From IMG/VR virus record IMGVR_UViG_3300028196_000009: DNA of 64,000 nt. The stretch is one strand, 5' to 3'. Below the pieces are notes generated by a model, which made no database searches, was not told the DNA's origin, and saw nothing but the letters and a program-made list of their open reading frames with translations. Source of the stretch: a virus. This document shows positions 1 through 18,741 of this stretch, piece after piece. The first letter of the stretch is position 1; each line of letters opens with the position of its first letter. The position numbers were made by a program, and so were the translations under genes.

Positions 1-243
1 GGTACACAGTCTATTTTCTCCGAAGGCATATCACTAAATGAATTAAGTTGTTTAGTACTAGGTACACCAGTAAATAATGAACCTTTACTCACACAGTTAG
101 TAGGTAGAGTTATACGAAAAGTAGAAGGCAAACCACAGCCTATTATTGTGGATATACATTTAAAAGGCAAAACAGCAACTCGTCAAGCAAACGCTAGAAT
201 GGGTTACTATTTAAAACAAGATTACGAGGTAAAAATACTATGA
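1..243 (+). CDS. Superfamily II DNA helicase, T5 D10-like (3' end only, not in ORF track)
   Basis: Manual frame-1 translation GTQSIFSEGISLNELSCLVLGTPVNNEPLLTQLVGRVIR... contains motif V (SEGIS) and motif VI (QLVGRVIR); position upstream of D11-D15 matches T5 order. Confidence 0.8.
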   Translation, partial: GTQSIFSEGISLNELSCLVLGTPVNNEPLLTQLVGRVIRKVEGKPQPIIVDIHLKGKTATRQANARMGYYLKQDYEVKIL

Positions 244-11338: not shown

Positions 11339-11976
11339 CAGAAAATAAAAACATAGTACTTGTGGGAAATTCAGTCGAAATTCTACAGTATGATTTGGGA
11401 GAATACATAGAGAGTTTTGATACAGTTGTGCGATTTGGAAAAGGAGTGCCTGAAGATAAATTGCAACAACATATAGGAAAACGTACAGACATATGGGTTA
11501 CGGGCTGGTTACGAATGAACTTTCATCCTGCGTTTAAAGACGCTTATCCTCTGTTTAATCGCTGTCGTATACACCTCGACAAATACCCAGACCATAGAGG
11601 TCCGCCTCCTTGGGGACATGATAACGATATGTTTAATGATGAGGAGTTAATGAAAATATTTGAATTGGTGGGAGCAAAGAACGGAGTAGCACCTGGTGGG
11701 GGTAGACCGAGTGCAGGTTTTCTTGGTATATTGTTTTTCTTGCAGAAGTGCAAATGTAAGAGTATAACTTTGGTTGGTTTTGATTTCTTTGCTAAGAAGT
11801 TACCAATTAAAACAGGAGGAGATTATCCATCAAGTTGGCATATGCCAGTAAATTCAACAAGTAAAAGTCCTCACAATCCTAATGAAGCTAAACTAGTTAA
11901 AAAGTGGGAACAAAAAGGTAAACTACATTGGAAAATTCTTTCCGACCTAAATGACGAAATGTTAAAGTTTTCCTAA
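11314..11976 (+). CDS. GT29 (sialyltransferase-like) protein
   Basis: Sialylmotif L-like VLVGNS..GEYIESFDTVVRF..GKRTD; S-like PSAGFLGI..CKSITLVGFDFF; VS-like H...E. Confidence 0.75.
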   Translation: MGRTLQDLTENKNIVLVGNSVEILQYDLGEYIESFDTVVRFGKGVPEDKLQQHIGKRTDIWVTGWLRMNFHPAFKDAYPLFNRCRIHLDKYPDHRGPPPWGHDNDMFNDEELMKIFELVGAKNGVAPGGGRPSAGFLGILFFLQKCKCKSITLVGFDFFAKKLPIKTGGDYPSSWHMPVNSTSKSPHNPNEAKLVKKWEQKGKLHWKILSDLNDEMLKFS

Positions 11977-12882
11977 TCTATATCCAACTTCTATTAATTT
12001 TCTTGCAGTTTGTTTTTGTCTATTTGTTTTATATGATAAGTTTTCACATACTCGTGCATTCCTAAAGTTAACTGGAATTTTAGGTATAAGTTGAGCATAT
12101 AACTCCCAAGGAGTTGATAGTTGAGTTCCTGTACTTACTTTAGCATACCCATTTGATAGTGACTTTGTCGGTAGTGCTATACTCCACGATTTTCTTAGCA
12201 TCACATTATAATTTATATATTCTTTTGACGGTAGTGCATCCCATTGTATTAATAAGTCACTTTTACCATTCATATATCTAGGAAGTACTCCATGTTCTTT
12301 TTCGTGTAATTTTGTAAAGAAAAACTGATTTGTTGTAGCTAGTACTCTGCTATCATAGTCATTATAGAATCCTCTTGAATAAAATAATTCATTATCATTT
12401 AGATCTTTGAGTAAGTCGTAATTCAACATAAAAAAGTCAGTGTCCCAGTTTGCAGGCATGTCTGCTTTAGCAAAATCTAGTATTCCATAATAAGATGCAA
12501 ATTGCTTGTGTCCAACAAATACTTTCTTTCTAGATAAGTGAGATAGTTTTGTTTGGAAAAAAGATTCTTTTGGTATTTCATCTGCCCATCCACTCTTTAA
12601 AAATATTCTATTGCCACCTGCATAAAGTATTCTTTTGTGTAACCCTTTATCTTTCCAATGTAATCTAAGATGTTGAATAGCTCTAGATGCATAATCTTTT
12701 TTCCAATATGCTTCATATATCCTTACATTTGGAATATTGTCAAATATCCAATTAATTGGTAAGTCGGCATAGTGTTCTTCCTCCACATAGAGATGTAGAC
12801 GATATTCTTCGTCTTTATCAATTAAAGAAGCGATAGTAAAATAACTCCACTCTGGCTTCCATGTATGTACTAATTCAATCAT
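11962..12882 (-). CDS. Divergent GT-A (GT8-like) protein
   Basis: TIASL..RLHLYV, RILYAGG, DFFMLNYDLLK resemble the GT8 layout; canonical DxD not seen. Confidence 0.45.
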   Translation of the reverse strand: MIELVHTWKPEWSYFTIASLIDKDEEYRLHLYVEEEHYADLPINWIFDNIPNVRIYEAYWKKDYASRAIQHLRLHWKDKGLHKRILYAGGNRIFLKSGWADEIPKESFFQTKLSHLSRKKVFVGHKQFASYYGILDFAKADMPANWDTDFFMLNYDLLKDLNDNELFYSRGFYNDYDSRVLATTNQFFFTKLHEKEHGVLPRYMNGKSDLLIQWDALPSKEYINYNVMLRKSWSIALPTKSLSNGYAKVSTGTQLSTPWELYAQLIPKIPVNFRNARVCENLSYKTNRQKQTARKLIEVGYRLGKL

Positions 12883-13757
12883 TTTGTATGTTTCCTATAA
12901 TCCCAAAAATTATTTATATATAAATCTAGTCTTTGTTGTGCATCCTCATCGAATGAAAATATCATTCCTGAGTTCCTTGCTGAGAATATTTTTTCGATTG
13001 CTTTGTACCCATTTGTACTTCCACAAGCATGATAAATACTTTCATATGTTAATAAACTTTTTTCTCTTTCTTTTTTTGAGTAGCTTATCATTCTTAAGTT
13101 TTTCTTAAGTAAGAGTGCGATAAGTCCCATTTCACTATTAGGCATTGTTGCTACATTAGAACACTTCATAAGTAATTCCATGCCTCCACTTCTTTTATCT
13201 AAAACTTTATCTTTTCCGAACTTTCTTTTAAATTTAGCAACCATTAAATCAGTGGTAATTGGATGTGGTTTTATTACATACCCCTCGTCTACACATTGTT
13301 TTATTCTACCCCAATGTACACAAGTTGGTTTAGTTAGTAAGTTTGTTCCTGGAGGAAATACAACTTTATCATATTCTTCTTCAGTATATTTTAAATGATA
13401 TTTATTTCTTAAATTATTTTTAATCTTATCTATTCTAGCAGTATCTATTTCTATATCTGAATCGGCAATTACACGCATCAATTTATCATTTATGAGTACA
13501 GAATTTACTCTTAGATATATACCTGCACCCAAAAAATCTGTATATAACCAACTTCTAATAGTTCTTATTTCGTTAGTGTTAAACCACAAATCATAATCAA
13601 AATTAATACCTTCTCGTTGTTCGGGTATTAATTCTTTCTTCATTCTAGATAACTCATCTAAATCTTCTTTAGGTCTAGTGCAAGATCCTGACTTGTATAT
13701 ATGAGTACTAAAATCTCCTAACTCCTCTACATTAGAGAGAGGGACTAATTTACCCAT
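12879..13757 (-). CDS. GT-B-like, KpsS/KpsC (capsule synthesis)-related protein
   Basis: VVFPPG, YVIKPHP, NSEMGLIALL motifs. Confidence 0.55.
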   Translation of the reverse strand: MGKLVPLSNVEELGDFSTHIYKSGSCTRPKEDLDELSRMKKELIPEQREGINFDYDLWFNTNEIRTIRSWLYTDFLGAGIYLRVNSVLINDKLMRVIADSDIEIDTARIDKIKNNLRNKYHLKYTEEEYDKVVFPPGTNLLTKPTCVHWGRIKQCVDEGYVIKPHPITTDLMVAKFKRKFGKDKVLDKRSGGMELLMKCSNVATMPNSEMGLIALLLKKNLRMISYSKKEREKSLLTYESIYHACGSTNGYKAIEKIFSARNSGMIFSFDEDAQQRLDLYINNFWDYRKHTK

Positions 13758-13938: not shown

Positions 13939-16900
13939 TTATTCTGTCCACTGATTACCATCCCAGTAGGACGCGCTAAACGCATCTGCACTAGATACTT
14001 CGGTGTCGAAGATTGTTCCAGCTGCTGATGCAGTAATTCTTTCAAATACTACAGTTGAAGTATCAAAAGTAGTTGTAGTTGTAGGTGTCGTTGTTCTAGT
14101 TGTATCTGATAGTCTACTTGTTTCAATCGTAGTGGTAGTAGTTCTACCTGTTGGATACGTTGTAGTTCTAGTTGTATTAAATACTGTTGAAGTTGCAAAT
14201 ACAGTAGTTCTAGTCGTGTCTGTAGTCCTTGAAGTATTGAATGTAGATGTAGTACTTCTACTAGTTTCTGTACCTCTACTTGTTAACGAAGCTCTTGATG
14301 TATTAAAGGTAGATACTGTATTCTGTGAAGTAACGGTTCCTCTACTTGTGAGGGATGCTCTAGACGTCTCAAATGTAGAGACTGTATCTCTGACTGTAAC
14401 TGTACCCCTAGTTGTTTCTGATAATCTAGAAGTATTGAATGTAGATATTGTACTTTTTGAAGTAAGTGTATTTTTACTTGTACCTGTCGTAGTATTAGTA
14501 TTGAACGTAGTTGTAGTACTTTTACTTGTACCTGTGCTTCTAGTTGTAAGAGTTCCTTGAGTAGTAGCATATGTTGTTGTAGTTGCTCTACTTGTAATAG
14601 TTGCTCTTGTTGTATCTGTTGCTCTTGTTGTATTAAATACTGTACTTGTAGCTCTACTAGTTTCTGTTGCTCTTGTTGTATCTGATACTCTGGAAGTATT
14701 AAATGTTGTGTCTGTTGCTCTGCTTGTTCCAGTTGTTCTTGTTGTATCTGATAGTCTAGTAGTATTAAATGTTGTGGTTGTACCTCTGTCTGTAACAGTT
14801 CCTCTAGCTGTGTTAAATATTGTAGTTGTAGCTCTGCTTGTACCTGTACTTCTTGAGGATAACCTAGAAGTTTGATACGCTGTTTCAAACGTAGTAGTTC
14901 TGCTAGTATTAGTAGTTTGTGACGTAGTATAACTGGTTGACTGTGCAGTATTACTTGTTCTACTTGTATTAGTACTTTGTGTAGTAGTATAACTGGTTGA
15001 CTGTGCAGTATTACTTGTTCTACTTGTATTAGTACTCTGTGTAGTAGTATAACTGGTTGACTGTGCAGTATTACTTGTTCTACTTGTATTAGTACTCTGT
15101 GTAGTAGTATAACTAGTTGATTGAGTTGTACCTGTTCCTCTACTTGTATTAGTATTTCGTGTAGTGGTAAATGATGTAGCATCTACATAAGAGGTTGTTA
15201 TACTTGTATTGGTACTTCTATTTGTAGTAAATGCTGTGGCATCTACATAAGATGTTGTTATACTCGTATTTGTACTTCTTGTTGTAGCAAATGATGTATT
15301 ATTTGTAAACCCTGTACTTATACTCGTATTGGTATTTCTTGTTGTAGCAAATGATGTATTAGCTGCAAAGGTTGTTGTTATACTTGTGTTGGTACTTCTA
15401 CTTGTAGCAAATGATGTATTAGCTGCAAAGGTTGTTGTTATACTCGTATTGGTACTTCTTGTTGTAGCAAATGATGTATTATCTACATAACCAGTTAATC
15501 TACTTGTATTTGTTGAGTTTGTAAATCCTGTACTATCTACGTATGCTGTTACTCTTGCTGTGTTAGTATTTCTTGTTGTAGCTTGAGAAGTATTATCTGT
15601 GTATGTTGATATTCTACTTGTAGCAGTATTTCTTGTTGTAGCTTGAGAGGTATTATCTGTGTATGCTGTTGTTCTCGCAGTGTTTGTATTTCTTGTTGTA
15701 CCCCTAGTTGTATTATCTGTATACGCAGTTAGTCTACTTGTAGCAGTATTATAAGCTGTACTTCTTGTTGTAGCTGCTAAATCTTCTGTTTGTCTTGTTG
15801 TATTATTTGTAAATGATGTACTTCTTGATGTATTAGTTCCAAATGAAGTTGCATTAGTAAAGCCTGTATTATCTGTGTATGCTGTTGTTCTTGCTGTGTT
15901 AGTAGCAAATGATGTACTTCTAGAAGTATTTGTACCTCTAGCTGTATTAGTAGCAAATGATGTATTATCTGTGTATGTTGTTGTTCTTGCAGTATTTGTA
16001 CTATTAGTAAACCCTGTACTTCTTGACGTATTTGTACCTCTTGCTGTGTTAGTAGCAAATGATGTACTATTTGTAAACCCTGTACTGTTTGTAAAACCAG
16101 TATTCCAACTTGTGTTTGTGTTTCTAGAAGTATTGTTCTGGAATGCTGTATCAGTATTACTTACTGGGTAAGTAGTAGACTCCGCAACTACCTGTACATA
16201 ACCACCACTATAACTAAAGTAAGTGTAGGTAAAAGCAGTTGTTGTTGTTCTTGCAGTATTTGTTAAAAAAGATGTAGAGGCAAATGAACCACTTGCTCTT
16301 ACAGTATTAGTATTTCTCGCAGTATTTGTATTTCTAGCGGTGTTATTTGTAAATCCTGTATTATCTGTGTATGCTGTTGTTCTCGCAGTGTTAGTATTAT
16401 TTGTAAATCCTGTACTTCTTGATGTATTTGTACCTCTTGTGGTATTGTTCGTAAAGCCTGTATTAGCTGCAAAGGTTGTTACTCTAGAGGTGTTATTTGT
16501 AAAGCCAGTACTTCTAGAAGTATTTGTGCCTCTAGCTGTATTAGTGTTTCTACTTGTGTTTGCAGTAAAACCTGTAGCTCTAGCTGTATTAGTAGCAAAT
16601 GAAGTTGCGTATGATGTATTTGTTCCAAACGATGTATTTCTTGTTGTGCTGTTTGTAAACGTTGATGTTCTTGATGTATTAGTAGCGAAAGCTGTATTGT
16701 AAGATGTACTATTTGTAAACCCTGTACTTCTTGATGTATTAGTAGCAAAAGCTGTATTGTAAGATGTACTATTAGTAAACCCTGTACTTCTTGACGTATT
16801 AGTAGCAAAAGCTGTATTGTAAGATGTACTATTCGTGAAGCTTGTACTTCTTGATGTATTTGTGTTTCTTACAGTATTAGTATTTACAGCTGCCAATGCA

Positions 16901-18516
16901 GTGTTTCTACTCGTATTTGTACTTTGAGTAGTAGTATATGATGTATTTACAGCAGCTAACGCAGTGTTTCTACTCGTATTTGTACTTTGAGTAGTATCAT
17001 ATGTAGTATTTACAGCGGCCAGCGCAGTGTTTCTAGAAGTATTTGTACTTTGAGTAGTATTATATGAAGTATTTACAGCAGCTAACGCAGTGTTTCTTAC
17101 AGTATTAGTACTTTGAGTAGTATCATATGAAGTATTTACAGCGGCCAGCGCAGTATTCCTACTTGTATTAGTATTTTGAGTAGTAGTATAATTAGTATTT
17201 ACAGCTGCCAATGCAGTGTTTCTACTCGTATTAGTATTTTGAGTAGTATTATAACTTGTACTTACTACGAAAGTAGATACAGTATCATACGTTGTATCTC
17301 TTGTAGTAGCAAATGATGTGTTGTCTGCATAAGCAGTAACAGTACCAAATGTTGTTGTTCTCGTTGTGGCAAATGATGTATTGTCTGCATAAGCAGTGAC
17401 AGTACCGAATGTTGTTGTTCTTGTTGTAGCAAATGAAGTGTTATCTGCATAAGCAGTAACAGTACCAAATGTTGTTGTTCTTGTTGTAGCAAAAGCTGTA
17501 TTGTTAGTAAACTCACTAAGTCTACTTGTAGATATTACTGTATCAAAGAATGTTGTAAAAGTAGTAGTAGTTTCATACGCAGTTGTTGTAGTTAAATTAG
17601 TCTCAAATGTTGTAGTAGTAGTAAAATCAGTTGTAGTCGTAAGTGTTGTATTAAACGTTGTCGTTGTACTAAAGGTAGTGGTTGTATTATACGCTGTAGT
17701 TGTACTTAAACTAGTCTCAAATACTGTTGTAGTTTCAAAAGTAGTAGTTGTATTAAATGCTGTAGTTGTGCTTTTACTTGTATTAAATGTTGTTGTTGTG
17801 GTAAAAGTAGTAGTTGTATTAAACGCTGTAGTTGTACTAGTATTAGTATCAAATGTTGTAGTTGTGGTAAAAGTAGTAGTTGTATTAAATGCTGTAGTTG
17901 TACCCTGTGTAGTATTATACGTTGTAGTAGTATTAAAAGCAGTAACAGTACTAAATACTGTAGTGGTTGCAATTGTTGTGTTAAATGTTGTGGTTGTATT
18001 AAACGCAGTGGTAGTAGTAAAATCAGTAGTTGTAGTTGTGTTTGTATTAAACGTTGTTGTTGTATTAAACTGCGTTGTAGTTGTAAAATCTGTAACAGTA
18101 GTAATTGTTGTGTTAAACGTTGTGGTTGTATTGAAAGCAGTGGTAGTAGTAAAATCAGTAGTTGTATTTACTGTTGTAGCAAAAACGGTAGTAGTTGCAA
18201 ATGTAGTTACTAAATTAGTTTCAGTACTTCTAGATGTATTAAACTCTGTTACTCTGCTTGTATTATACCCCGATACTGTAGCTACGTCTGTATCAAAAGC
18301 TGTAGTTGTATTGAATGTTGTAACAATGTCATTTGTGTTTGTAGTTCTAACAGTTGCTGTGTTTCTAGCAGTTTCATGAACCGCAGAGAATGGGCCAGCT
18401 AAATTACTGTTATCATTTACATATACTTCATTGACCCTTCGTATTGTTCCGCCATCATTGACTGCAAGGAAGGATATCTGACGTAGTGTACCACTGTCAT
18501 TAACATATATTGCCAT
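13939..18516 (-). CDS. 1525-aa Thr-rich self-complementary repeat protein, putative fold-back fibre
   Basis: Single long ORF in the tail-fibre region; YVNDxGT-type N-terminus, YWDGNQW C-terminus; mirrored repeat blocks around a central aromatic loop. Confidence 0.85.
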   Translation of the reverse strand: MAIYVNDSGTLRQISFLAVNDGGTIRRVNEVYVNDNSNLAGPFSAVHETARNTATVRTTNTNDIVTTFNTTTAFDTDVATVSGYNTSRVTEFNTSRSTETNLVTTFATTTVFATTVNTTTDFTTTTAFNTTTTFNTTITTVTDFTTTTQFNTTTTFNTNTTTTTDFTTTTAFNTTTTFNTTIATTTVFSTVTAFNTTTTYNTTQGTTTAFNTTTTFTTTTTFDTNTSTTTAFNTTTTFTTTTTFNTSKSTTTAFNTTTTFETTTVFETSLSTTTAYNTTTTFSTTTTFNTTLTTTTDFTTTTTFETNLTTTTAYETTTTFTTFFDTVISTSRLSEFTNNTAFATTRTTTFGTVTAYADNTSFATTRTTTFGTVTAYADNTSFATTRTTTFGTVTAYADNTSFATTRDTTYDTVSTFVVSTSYNTTQNTNTSRNTALAAVNTNYTTTQNTNTSRNTALAAVNTSYDTTQSTNTVRNTALAAVNTSYNTTQSTNTSRNTALAAVNTTYDTTQSTNTSRNTALAAVNTSYTTTQSTNTSRNTALAAVNTNTVRNTNTSRSTSFTNSTSYNTAFATNTSRSTGFTNSTSYNTAFATNTSRSTGFTNSTSYNTAFATNTSRTSTFTNSTTRNTSFGTNTSYATSFATNTARATGFTANTSRNTNTARGTNTSRSTGFTNNTSRVTTFAANTGFTNNTTRGTNTSRSTGFTNNTNTARTTAYTDNTGFTNNTARNTNTARNTNTVRASGSFASTSFLTNTARTTTTAFTYTYFSYSGGYVQVVAESTTYPVSNTDTAFQNNTSRNTNTSWNTGFTNSTGFTNSTSFATNTARGTNTSRSTGFTNSTNTARTTTYTDNTSFATNTARGTNTSRSTSFATNTARTTAYTDNTGFTNATSFGTNTSRSTSFTNNTTRQTEDLAATTRSTAYNTATSRLTAYTDNTTRGTTRNTNTARTTAYTDNTSQATTRNTATSRISTYTDNTSQATTRNTNTARVTAYVDSTGFTNSTNTSRLTGYVDNTSFATTRSTNTSITTTFAANTSFATSRSTNTSITTTFAANTSFATTRNTNTSISTGFTNNTSFATTRSTNTSITTSYVDATAFTTNRSTNTSITTSYVDATSFTTTRNTNTSRGTGTTQSTSYTTTQSTNTSRTSNTAQSTSYTTTQSTNTSRTSNTAQSTSYTTTQSTNTSRTSNTAQSTSYTTSQTTNTSRTTTFETAYQTSRLSSRSTGTSRATTTIFNTARGTVTDRGTTTTFNTTRLSDTTRTTGTSRATDTTFNTSRVSDTTRATETSRATSTVFNTTRATDTTRATITSRATTTTYATTQGTLTTRSTGTSKSTTTTFNTNTTTGTSKNTLTSKSTISTFNTSRLSETTRGTVTVRDTVSTFETSRASLTSRGTVTSQNTVSTFNTSRASLTSRGTETSRSTTSTFNTSRTTDTTRTTVFATSTVFNTTRTTTYPTGRTTTTTIETSRLSDTTRTTTPTTTTTFDTSTVVFERITASAAGTIFDTEVSSADAFSASYWDGNQWTE
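14242..18165 (-). repeat. Coding tandem repeats (48/60/63/66-bp units) of the Thr-rich protein
   Basis: Near-identical 60-bp units at about 14930-15120, 16680-16860 and 17310-17490; 63-bp units at about 16880-17250; degenerate 66-bp units at both ends. Confidence 0.9.
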
Positions 18517-18519
18517 ATC

Positions 18520-18741
18520 TTAACTCGAATAAACAAACCATACATGACCGTCACTCGTTCCAGTAGTATTTGTTGGTGCTGTTGTTGTTATTGTAAAAGG
18601 CAATCTAGCTTTTGCTATGATTCCTGAACCAATCTTATTTGTCGCTACTGCTCCCTCAAAGTTTCTACTAGCATCAATTACATCAGTACCATCAATTTTT
18701 AATCCTGCGTCCTCGATATTAAAGTCTAATTTTTGTCCCAT
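18520..18741 (-). CDS. Small fibre-associated/adaptor protein
   Basis: 73 aa ending TTTAPT..DGHVWFVY, a motif common in tail-fibre proteins. Confidence 0.55.
   Translation of the reverse strand: MGQKLDFNIEDAGLKIDGTDVIDASRNFEGAVATNKIGSGIIAKARLPFTITTTAPTNTTGTSDGHVWFVYSS

What the first reader, a model, noticed from the sequence alone, without database searches (positions are those of the whole stretch)
13939..18516. A self-complementary protein: 1525-aa fold-back beta-zipper with an aromatic-to-Arg pairing code
Seen by manual indexing. Repeat blocks mirror about the centre. N-arm: 8x22-mer (res 118-293), one 16-mer, 4x20-mer, 6x21-mer. C-arm: 6x20-mer (1016-1135), 4x20-mer, one 16-mer, 8x22-mer (1250-1425). 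The only non-repeat aromatic loop (FTYTYFSYSGGYVQVVAESTTYPV, res 762-785) lies in the middle. Folding back with i+j=1542 puts F/Y on one arm opposite R/K/Q on the other: R51/F1491, F68/R1474, Y84/R1458, R88/Y1454, F122/R1420, F128/R1414, F134/R1408, K248/F1294, R332/F1210, R346/Y1196, Y356/R1186, F416/R1126, R432/Y1110. Each 21-mer carries one extra residue (ALAA) and shifts the register by +1. After six of them the register is 1548, which holds to the tip: R550/F998, F560/R988, Y566/R982, R596/Y952, F704/R844 and R712/F836 (sharing an irregular 8-residue gap), R756/F792. Exceptions are few (Y636/D912, Y200/T1342, F745 one off from W804). Spacings are almost all even, so paired residues fall on one strand face and the other face is nearly all Thr/Ser. 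The arms are not DNA inverted repeats, so selection acts on the protein. Inference: a ~700-residue-per-arm antiparallel beta-hairpin held by cation-pi pairs (up to ~240 nm if fully extended). It may trimerise into a six-stranded needle like the much shorter out-and-back T4 gp37 tip, with a receptor-binding loop at the tip and both termini at the virion base. I know no described protein with this architecture at this scale.
Basis: partly seen in the sequence, partly recalled or inferred. Interest (0 to 1): 0.96.

Follow-up and report, generated by a model that had tools for sequence, protein, structure and literature searches.

The report
Fold-back, self-complementary phage tail fibre
A 1525-residue protein of an uncultured marine phage has two halves that match each other in reverse, aromatic residue opposite arginine, in every one of 52 relatives of very different length, so the chain almost certainly folds back on itself into a very long thin fibre of a kind I could not find described.

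Summary
The ORF is on the minus strand (13939-18516). At i+j=1542 and 1548, 72 and 70 of its 145 aromatic residues face R/K/Q. The next best sum gives 46, shuffles at most 43, a parallel control 36, and no other large ORF in the window shows any signal. Allowing six one-residue bulges gives 116 pairs.

All 52 distinct full-length homologues from marine viral contigs (807-1621 aa) peak at i+j=L+15..18 (one at L+22). Close relatives differ by mirrored indels in the two arms. Aligned terminal arms show swapped pairs, (Y,I) against (R/L/Q,F). The symmetry centre always falls on a short, hypervariable, turn-rich element, while both termini are conserved.

The face carrying F/Y/R and Thr evolves about four times more slowly than the other face. 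The gene lies in the tail-fibre module of a distantly T5-like siphovirus.

Best reading: an intramolecular antiparallel fold-back fibre with the receptor-binding tip at mid-chain and both termini at the virion. I found no homologue with a structure, no cultured phage and no paper. The scan holds an unchecked note of a similar mirror-armed protein in another genome.

The parts
13939..18516 (-). Whole ORF, 1525 aa (P0001): T 37.5%, S 11.5%, N 10.6%, F 6.4%, R 6.3%, 4 Pro, 1 His, 0 Cys
   Evidence: Against the 98%-identical copy L002, 54 synonymous and 33 non-synonymous codons differ.
18367..18516 (-). Conserved N-terminal domain, residues 1-50: three VNDxGT(L/I)R hairpin-like motifs. Proposed virion-proximal base.
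   Evidence: Alignment A2 has 68% mean column identity. Weak match to phrog_13729, function unknown.
16249..18366 (-). N arm, residues 51-756. Period-2 pattern with F/Y/R plus Thr on one face.
17638..18165 (-). N-arm array of 8 x 22-mers (residues 118-293), three Phe per unit
16876..17253 (-). N-arm array of 6 x 21-mers (residues 422-547). Each has one residue more than its C-arm partner, read as six one-residue bulges.
16144..16248 (-). Central non-repeat, aromatic-rich element (residues 757-791) at the symmetry centre (774). Proposed distal, receptor-binding tip.
   Evidence: Four of the 33 differences from L002 fall in residues 768-784.
14044..16143 (-). C arm, residues 792-1491, complementary in reverse to the N arm
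15112..15471 (-). C-arm array of 6 x 20-mers (residues 1016-1135), partner of the 21-mers
14242..14769 (-). C-arm array of 8 x 22-mers (residues 1250-1425), three Arg/Lys and one Phe per unit. Partner of the N-arm 22-mers.
13939..14043 (-). Conserved C-terminal domain (residues 1492-1525, ERITASAAGTIFDTEV...YWDGNQW) and stop codon. Proposed to sit beside the N-terminal domain.
   Evidence: Alignment A3 has 63% mean column identity.
18520..18741 (-). Conserved 73-aa ORF immediately upstream; its stop lies 3 nt before the fibre ATG. Possible partner or adaptor.
   Evidence: found in 105 related loci, 54-99% identity
18743..21811 (-). Upstream 1022-aa protein that matches tail-fibre families. Always the neighbour of the fibre gene.
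11962..13757 (-). Two downstream genes (292 aa and 306 aa), always syntenic, function unknown

Best explanation
The gene encodes a side tail fibre of an uncultured marine siphovirus with a distantly T5-like head.

The chain runs out from a conserved N-terminal domain as a roughly 700-residue beta-strand-like arm. It turns at a short hypervariable element at mid-chain and runs back antiparallel to a conserved C-terminal domain. Residue i therefore lies beside residue (L+16 or so) minus i.

Every second residue of both arms forms one conserved face. That face is mostly Thr, and every 4, 6 or 10 residues it carries one aromatic residue on one arm opposite a long side chain on the other (Arg above all, also Lys, Gln or Leu/Ile/Val). 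These pairs set and lock the register. The other face is small, polar and free to vary.

Because the arms must match, repeat units are gained or lost in mirrored pairs, and fibre length changes without loss of the zipper. The mid-chain element is the distal tip and the likely receptor-binding site; both termini sit at the virion.

Shown: the complementarity, its conservation, the mirrored indels, the covarying pairs, the two-face substitution pattern and the genomic context.

Inferred: that the pairing is within one chain, that the arms are beta-strands, and that the conserved face is buried by association of several hairpins, most likely three as in other phage fibres.
For: 1. The signal is unique and far above controls.

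2. In 52 distinct full-length homologues of 807-1621 aa, the best anti-diagonal is L+15..18 in 51 and L+22 in one. Up to 124 of 143-149 aromatics are paired in a single ungapped register.

3. Close relatives differ by mirrored indels.
- L027/L039: deletions at 379-388 and 629-638; the mirror of the first is 632-641.
- WIN/L004: four mirrored events, including a 21-mer lost against a 20-mer.
- Net change, N arm against C arm: 68/68, 250/254 and 224/221 residues in other pairs.

4. In the non-repetitive aligned terminal arms, complementarity is 232 good against 145 bad at s=1542, and at most 100 good at any other shift. Column pair 78/1464 switches between (Y,I) and (R/L/Q,F). Double loss (T,T) and double gain (F,Q) also occur.

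5. 95% of shaft Arg face F or Y.

6. The face with F/Y/R and Thr differs at 3.1% of positions between close pairs, against 12.1% for the other face. Mark spacing is 95% even.

7. The centre holds turn-rich, hypervariable elements (FDPENGT, EEEESGT, GDQSEG, and up to ~80 aa rich in Trp/Tyr). Complementarity stops there. The termini are conserved.

8. The gene lies in a tail module: tape measure, minor tail, J-like protein, fibre-like genes. Synteny is fixed across the related loci.

9. The arms are not DNA inverted repeats.
Against: There is no three-dimensional support. AlphaFold2 gave pLDDT 34 with an alignment and 35 without one, with no secondary structure assigned. The complex predictor was closed.

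No homologue has a solved structure, and no cultured phage carries the gene, so presence in the virion and oligomeric state are unknown.

Two otherwise identical pairs differ by uncompensated repeat changes: L007/L008 by 20 aa in the N arm only, and L015/L018 by -40 in the N arm and +20 in the C arm. These are either assembly errors or tolerated loop-outs.

Some members pair less than half of their aromatics with R/K/Q (L121, L106, L115, L053), so other pair types exist.

The protein carries a net charge of about +37 per chain. This is awkward if all the Arg are buried.
Confidence: 0.75

Rival explanations
1. The same antiparallel register is formed between chains, not within one. Two chains (or two sets of chains) run in opposite directions, giving a fibre with two equivalent ends and the central element in the middle.
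For: The relation i+j=constant is satisfied equally by an antiparallel homodimer. None of the sequence statistics separates pairing within a chain from pairing between chains.
Against: Complementarity breaks off at the centre. The centre is a turn-rich element of variable size, from about 10 to about 80 aa. That fits a loop or tip domain, not a zipper running through a two-fold axis. Conserved termini with a hypervariable centre match the usual pattern of a conserved virion-proximal end and a variable distal end only if the chain folds back.
Confidence: 0.1
2. The halves are parallel beta-solenoids (Thr-rich, as in antifreeze proteins) or two solenoids lying side by side. The anti-diagonal signal would then be a by-product of matched repeat periods.
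For: The protein has tandem repeats of 16-22 residues and a Thr-rich period-2 pattern. Secondary peaks at s plus or minus 6 or 22 show that periodicity contributes to the counts.
Against: Residue-exact mirroring also holds in the irregular, non-periodic stretches (residues 541-780 and the terminal arms). There alternative registers score far lower. Block shuffles that keep the repeat units reach 43 at most against 72, and the parallel control gives 36. Mirrored indels of 4-20 residues are not required by a solenoid. Stacking Arg on Arg in every coil of the C arm would be unfavourable.
Confidence: 0.05
3. It is a disordered, mucin-like Thr/Ser-rich spacer, or an artefact of assembling repeats from metagenomes.
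For: Composition is extreme (60% T+S+N). Profile searches are swamped by low-complexity hits. Short-read contigs cannot span the repeats.
Against: The protein has only 4 Pro, 9.5% aromatics at exact spacings, and alternate positions that evolve four times more slowly. Synonymous changes outnumber non-synonymous ones. The mirrored layout recurs in 52 distinct sequences, nearly all from separate metagenome contigs. Pieces of the gene occur in at least two further seawater DNA runs and in metatranscriptome libraries.
Confidence: 0.02

Closest known systems
Distal tip ('needle') of the phage T4 long tail fibre protein gp37 (crystal structure, PDB 2XGF, Bartual et al. 2010; recalled from general knowledge; needle dimensions of about 150 x 25 A from PMC3004832)
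   Same: A phage fibre in which each chain runs to the distal tip and back, so antiparallel strands from the outward and return legs lie side by side and the receptor-binding residues sit at the turn.
   Different: In gp37 only about the last 200 of 1026 residues fold back. The return leg ends far from the virion, and the core is held by His-coordinated iron. Here the whole shaft (about 2 x 700 residues) would be the fold-back, both termini are at the base, there is one His in 1525 residues, and the register is set by pairs of an aromatic with Arg, Lys, Gln or an aliphatic residue. No sequence similarity was found.
L-shaped tail fibre pb1 of phage T5 and the lateral fibres of T5-like phages (e.g. 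DT57C, PMC10713586, found but not read)
   Same: A side fibre of about 1400 residues. The head protein of this phage is 33-38% identical to those of T5-like phages.
   Different: No sequence match. No C-terminal intramolecular chaperone/peptidase domain was detected. pb1 is a unidirectional trimer whose variable receptor-binding part is C-terminal; here the variable part is at mid-chain.
Cross-strand aromatic-Arg/Lys pairs in beta-hairpins, and the Trp-Arg ladder of the WSXWS motif in cytokine receptors (general knowledge)
   Same: An aromatic ring packed against the long side chain of Arg or Lys on the neighbouring antiparallel strand, on the same sheet face.
   Different: Those are single pairs or ladders of 4-6 residues inside small domains. 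Here more than 100 such pairs per chain appear to encode the register of a structure hundreds of residues long.
Tail needle gp26 of phage P22 (trimeric coiled coil with an inverted, fold-back coiled-coil segment; general knowledge)
   Same: A phage fibre that contains a segment where the chain reverses direction.
   Different: It is alpha-helical, short, and only partly folded back.

Membership tests
Phage tail fibre (functional class) | Gene lies in the tail / host-recognition module | tested here: met
   It lies downstream of the tape measure, minor tail, tail assembly and J-like genes and next to two proteins that match tail-fibre PHROGs. This order is conserved in all related loci.
Phage tail fibre (functional class) | Conserved virion-attachment part and a hypervariable receptor-binding part | tested here: met
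   N-terminal region 68% and C-terminal region 63% mean column identity, centre 32%. Tip elements are unrelated between subfamilies.
Phage tail fibre (functional class) | Structural component of the virion; trimeric fibrous assembly | not testable with these tools
   No cultured phage carries it.
T4 gp37-type needle | Sequence homology to the gp37 C-terminal region | tested here: not met
   No PDB chain matched at E<=1. No PHROG or Pfam family matched the whole protein.
T4 gp37-type needle | HxH motifs that coordinate iron in the core | tested here: not met
   One His in 1525 residues.
T4 gp37-type needle | Out-and-back chain topology with the tip at the turn | tested here: inconclusive
   Strongly implied by sequence complementarity and covariation, but no structural model.
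T5 pb1 / L-shaped fibre family | Sequence homology and a C-terminal self-cleaving chaperone domain | tested here: not met
   No match in PHROGs, Pfam or translated phage genomes.
Parallel beta-solenoid (antifreeze-like Thr-rich repeats) | Contacts between successive coils only; no long-range antiparallel constraint | tested here: not met
   Long-range anti-diagonal complementarity is present, with mirrored indels and covariation.

The most novel reading that the evidence does not exclude
This would be a family of natural proteins whose two halves are complementary in reverse by a simple side-chain rule: an aromatic residue opposite Arg, Lys, Gln or an aliphatic residue, on a threonine background. 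The chain would zip into an intramolecular antiparallel ribbon or needle more than 100 nm long. The gene would have to keep its two arms matched in length and sequence by compensatory changes, as the two strands of an RNA stem do. Such an architecture has not been described for any fibre and would be a ready-made design rule for long beta-nanofibres of programmable length. An unchecked note of this scan (e1-5354686) hints that an unrelated protein in another genome follows the same plan.
Probability: 0.6. Interest if true: 0.92.

Novelty: new variant of a known kind. Interest (0 to 1): 0.85.

Why it matters
If the fold-back is real, this is the longest intramolecular beta-zipper known, and a rare case where the register of a fibrous protein can be read directly from its sequence.

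It shows a way for phages to tune fibre length. In this family length varies two-fold, through paired repeat gains and losses, while the anchor is kept and only a small mid-chain tip is swapped.

It gives structural biology and protein design a simple pairing rule that can be tested. It also explains why such genes defeat homology searches and structure predictors.

The phage is widespread in seawater metagenomes, so the fibre is likely to matter for host recognition in the ocean.

Tried and rejected
Structure prediction
- AlphaFold2 on residues 574-974 with a 32-sequence alignment gave pLDDT 34 and no secondary structure. MAFFT cannot keep the mirrored register in these repeats: 805 columns for 401 residues, and still gappy for tip-centred sets.
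- AlphaFold2 on residues 700-848 without an alignment gave pLDDT 35.
- No fold search was run, because neither model was usable.

Homology searches
- The search for homologous proteins found nothing at E<=0.001.
- HMMER against 1.8 billion representatives returned only N-terminal fragments and spurious leucine-rich-repeat and serine-rich hits.
- tblastn against phage genomes gave no match for the whole protein or for residues 1-70.
- There was no PDB match.
- Pfam and PHROGs gave nothing for the whole protein. Residues 1-110 alone matched phrog_13729, function unknown.
- The ESM Atlas returned only unnamed viral clusters.

Other analyses
- Mutual information between the N and C alignments was dominated by clade-defining substitutions and was uninformative.
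- Gapped complementarity alignment is too permissive on its own: a parallel control also reaches 31-93 pairs. I therefore rely on ungapped counts.
- Cys-Cys anti-diagonal pairing in the Cys-rich member L121 was not found.
- Logan contigs are too short to verify repeat copy number.
- Six literature searches found no description of this architecture.


Full report
**What is there.** The ORF at 13939-18516 is on the minus strand and encodes 1525 residues. Composition: T 37.5%, S 11.5%, N 10.6%, A 8.3%, F 6.4%, R 6.3%, four Pro, one His, no Cys. The repeat blocks are as described. The N arm has 8x22-mers (118-293), a 16-mer, 4x20-mers and 6x21-mers. The C arm has 6x20-mers (1016-1135), 4x20-mers and 8x22-mers (1250-1425).

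**Is the complementarity more than chance?**
- For each sum s=i+j I counted positions where F/Y/W faces R/K/Q. The counts are 72 at s=1542 and 70 at s=1548. The next best value is 46; the mean is 12 and the sd 10.
- No Arg/Lys/Gln faces another at s=1542.
- In 60-residue windows nearly every mark is paired: 8/8, 9/9, 13/13, 12/12 at 1542 for residues 31-450, and 10-12 of 11-12 at 1548 for residues 541-750.
- A complementarity alignment with gaps places exactly six one-residue steps, one in each 21-mer/20-mer pair. It yields 116 pairs against 34 unpaired marks, most of them at the termini and the tip.
- Shuffling residues gives a maximum of 26. Shuffling blocks of 6 to 44 residues gives at most 43. 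Reversing the C half, which tests parallel pairing, gives 36.
- Among 18 large ORFs of the window only this one departs from its shuffles: z=36 against |z|<=1.5.
- The gene has no long DNA inverted repeats, so the mirror exists only at the protein level.

**Relatives.** Two scans of IMG/VR viral contigs gave 62 and 80 loci; 244 stretches matched in the second scan. From these I extracted 52 distinct full-length proteins of 807-1621 aa. All but one have the same N terminus (MAIYVNDSGTLRQISF...); all share the C terminus (...ERITAS..GTIFDTEV...YWDG..W).
- In 51 of them the best anti-diagonal is s=L+15 to L+18. In the one member with a divergent N terminus it is L+22.
- In several members a single ungapped register pairs almost everything: L042 120 of 139 aromatics, L086 124 of 149, L123 124 of 143, L022 92 of 117.
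- The counts of aromatics in one arm and of R/K/Q in the other correlate at r=0.91 across the family. FFF and RRR triplet motifs correlate at r=0.94.

**Coupled evolution of the arms.** Pairwise alignments of close relatives show mirrored indels.
- L027/L039 (93% identical) differ by two 10-residue deletions, at 379-388 and 629-638. The mirror image of the first is 632-641.
- WIN/L004 differ by four mirrored events: 20/20, 20/20 and 16/16 residues, and a 21-mer against a 20-mer.
- L044/L032 differ by 12/12, 10/10, 4/4 and 11/10.
- Net changes, N arm against C arm, are 68/68 (L015/L016), 250/254 (L042/L030) and 224/221 (L010/L021).
- Two otherwise identical pairs are unbalanced: L007/L008, and L015/L018. 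These may be assembly errors in repeats or tolerated loop-outs.

**Covariation in homologous columns.** In the well-aligned, non-repetitive terminal arms (alignments A2 and A3), complementarity is 232 good against 145 bad at s=1542, and at most 100 good at any of 25 other shifts. Column pair 78/1464 alternates between (Y or V, I) and (R/L/Q, F). Double loss (T,T) and double gain (F,Q) also occur.

**The pairing rule.** Over 20 homologues, 95% of shaft Arg face F or Y. The partners of F are R 54%, Q 22%, K 6% and L/V/I 11%. The partner of Y is R in 73%. The rule is therefore an aromatic residue opposite a long side chain, not strictly cation-pi. Because the alignment was optimised for these pairs, I give more weight to the ungapped counts.

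**Two faces.**
- Spacings between successive F/Y/W/R are even in 211 of 223 cases here and in 2893 of 3048 in the family.
- The face that carries them is 78% Thr.
- Between 12 close pairs the marked face differs at 3.1% of positions and the other at 12.1%. Each informative pair has Fisher p between 2e-3 and 1e-21.
- Against the 98%-identical copy, 28 of 33 substitutions fall at odd positions and four fall in the tip loop.
- Synonymous codon changes outnumber non-synonymous ones, 54 to 33.
- A strict period of two with one constrained face over about 1400 residues indicates beta-strands with one buried face. I take this as indirect evidence that several ribbons pack together.

**The centre and the ends.** The symmetry centre always falls on a short non-repeat element that differs between subfamilies and is rich in turn formers or aromatics. 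Examples are FDPENGT, EEEESGT, GDQSEG, CDEQGT, YSGGYVQ, a Gly/Tyr/Trp-rich 50-mer, and an ~80-residue Trp/Tyr-rich insert in L063. Complementarity stops there: the innermost pair in the window is R756/F792. The termini are conserved (68% and 63% mean column identity), while the centre is not (32%). Conserved ends with a variable middle fit a chain that folds back, with its tip at mid-chain. They fit an antiparallel dimer less well.

**Context.**
- The window carries a siphovirus structural module on the same strand: terminase, portal, fused protease/major head protein, major tail protein, tape measure, minor tail, tail assembly, a 1845-aa J-like protein, then fibre-like genes.
- The head protein is 33-38% identical to those of T5-like phages.
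- The local order is fixed in the related loci: 541 aa, 110 aa, 1022 aa (matches tail-fibre families), a 73-aa ORF, the fold-back gene, 292 aa, 306 aa.
- The region occurs in seawater and marine metagenomes of at least 14 studies and in marine metatranscriptome libraries. Pieces from two further DNA runs and two RNA libraries cover the gene. Presence in an RNA library does not prove transcription.

**What could not be shown.** AlphaFold2 failed with and without an alignment. A failed model is not evidence against the fold: MAFFT cannot align these repeats without destroying the mirror. The complex predictor was closed. No relative has a solved structure, a family name or a cultured host. Oligomeric state, strand tilt and therefore length (roughly 130-240 nm for 700 residues per arm, by my own geometric estimate) and presence in virions remain inference.

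**Comparison with known systems.** The nearest precedent for the topology is the out-and-back needle at the tip of T4 gp37. That needle is about seven times shorter, is iron-stapled through His residues, and is not homologous. T5 pb1 is the functional analogue in the nearest known phage group, but it shares neither sequence nor layout. Six literature searches found nothing like this.

**Earlier notes of this scan.** One first-reader note on this same stretch (e1-5359729) made the coupled-length point, which I tested and confirm. Another (e1-5354686) describes a mirror-armed 1554-aa protein in another genome. I did not test it.

**Verdict.** The fold-back is strongly supported by sequence evolution, but no three-dimensional model supports it. 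The trimeric needle is plausible but untested. I class it as a new variant of a known kind (phage tail fibre with an out-and-back leg), with a good chance of being a new architectural principle.

Noticed in passing
window 18520-18741 (-): An unlisted 73-aa ORF (MGQKLDFNIEDAGLKIDG...ARLPFTITTTAPTNTTGTSDGHVWFVYSS) fills the gap between the 1022-aa fibre-like gene and the fold-back gene. Its stop lies 3 nt before the fibre ATG. It is conserved (54-99% identity) in 105 related loci and has no Pfam or PHROG match. It may be an adaptor or assembly partner.
   Followed up: partly
L121 (IMGVR_UViG_3300001450_000885), protein residues ~430-1030: This 1436-aa family member has a different central repeat set, with 28 Cys and repeated GAHTNNT and YACxF motifs (18- to 20-mers). 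The aromatic/Arg rule is weak there and no Cys-Cys mirror pairing is seen. Its tip-like non-repeat element still sits at the symmetry centre (~717-745).
   Followed up: partly
L008 and L018 against L007 and L015: Otherwise 100%-identical proteins differ by unbalanced repeat changes: one 20-mer missing in the N arm only, or -40 in the N arm and +20 in the C arm. These are either repeat mis-assembly or natural variants with a looped-out unit.
   Followed up: no
window 16876-17253 and 15112-15471 (-): Six consecutive 21-mer/20-mer pairs imply six one-residue bulges, all on the N-arm strand, about one third of the way from the tip. Such a run could bend or kink the fibre. Many relatives lack it and keep one register throughout.
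   Followed up: no
window 11962-13757 (-): The 292-aa and 306-aa genes downstream always accompany the fibre gene. The 292-aa protein has distant hypothetical-protein relatives (23-31% identity) in Caulobacter, Stenotrophomonas and Vibrio phages. Its function is unknown; it may be a fibre chaperone or accessory protein.
   Followed up: partly
P0001 residues 3-61: The conserved N-terminal domain (three VNDxGT(L/I)R motifs) weakly matches phrog_13729 (E=5e-8), a family of ~190-aa phage proteins of unknown function. These could be much shorter carriers of the same anchor.
   Followed up: no
P0001 residues 404-560: The SRNTALAAVNT 21-mers draw many weak HMMER hits (24-34% identity) to leucine-rich-repeat proteins with DVSxNTALxxL motifs. 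I judge this to be compositional or motif convergence, not homology.
   Followed up: partly
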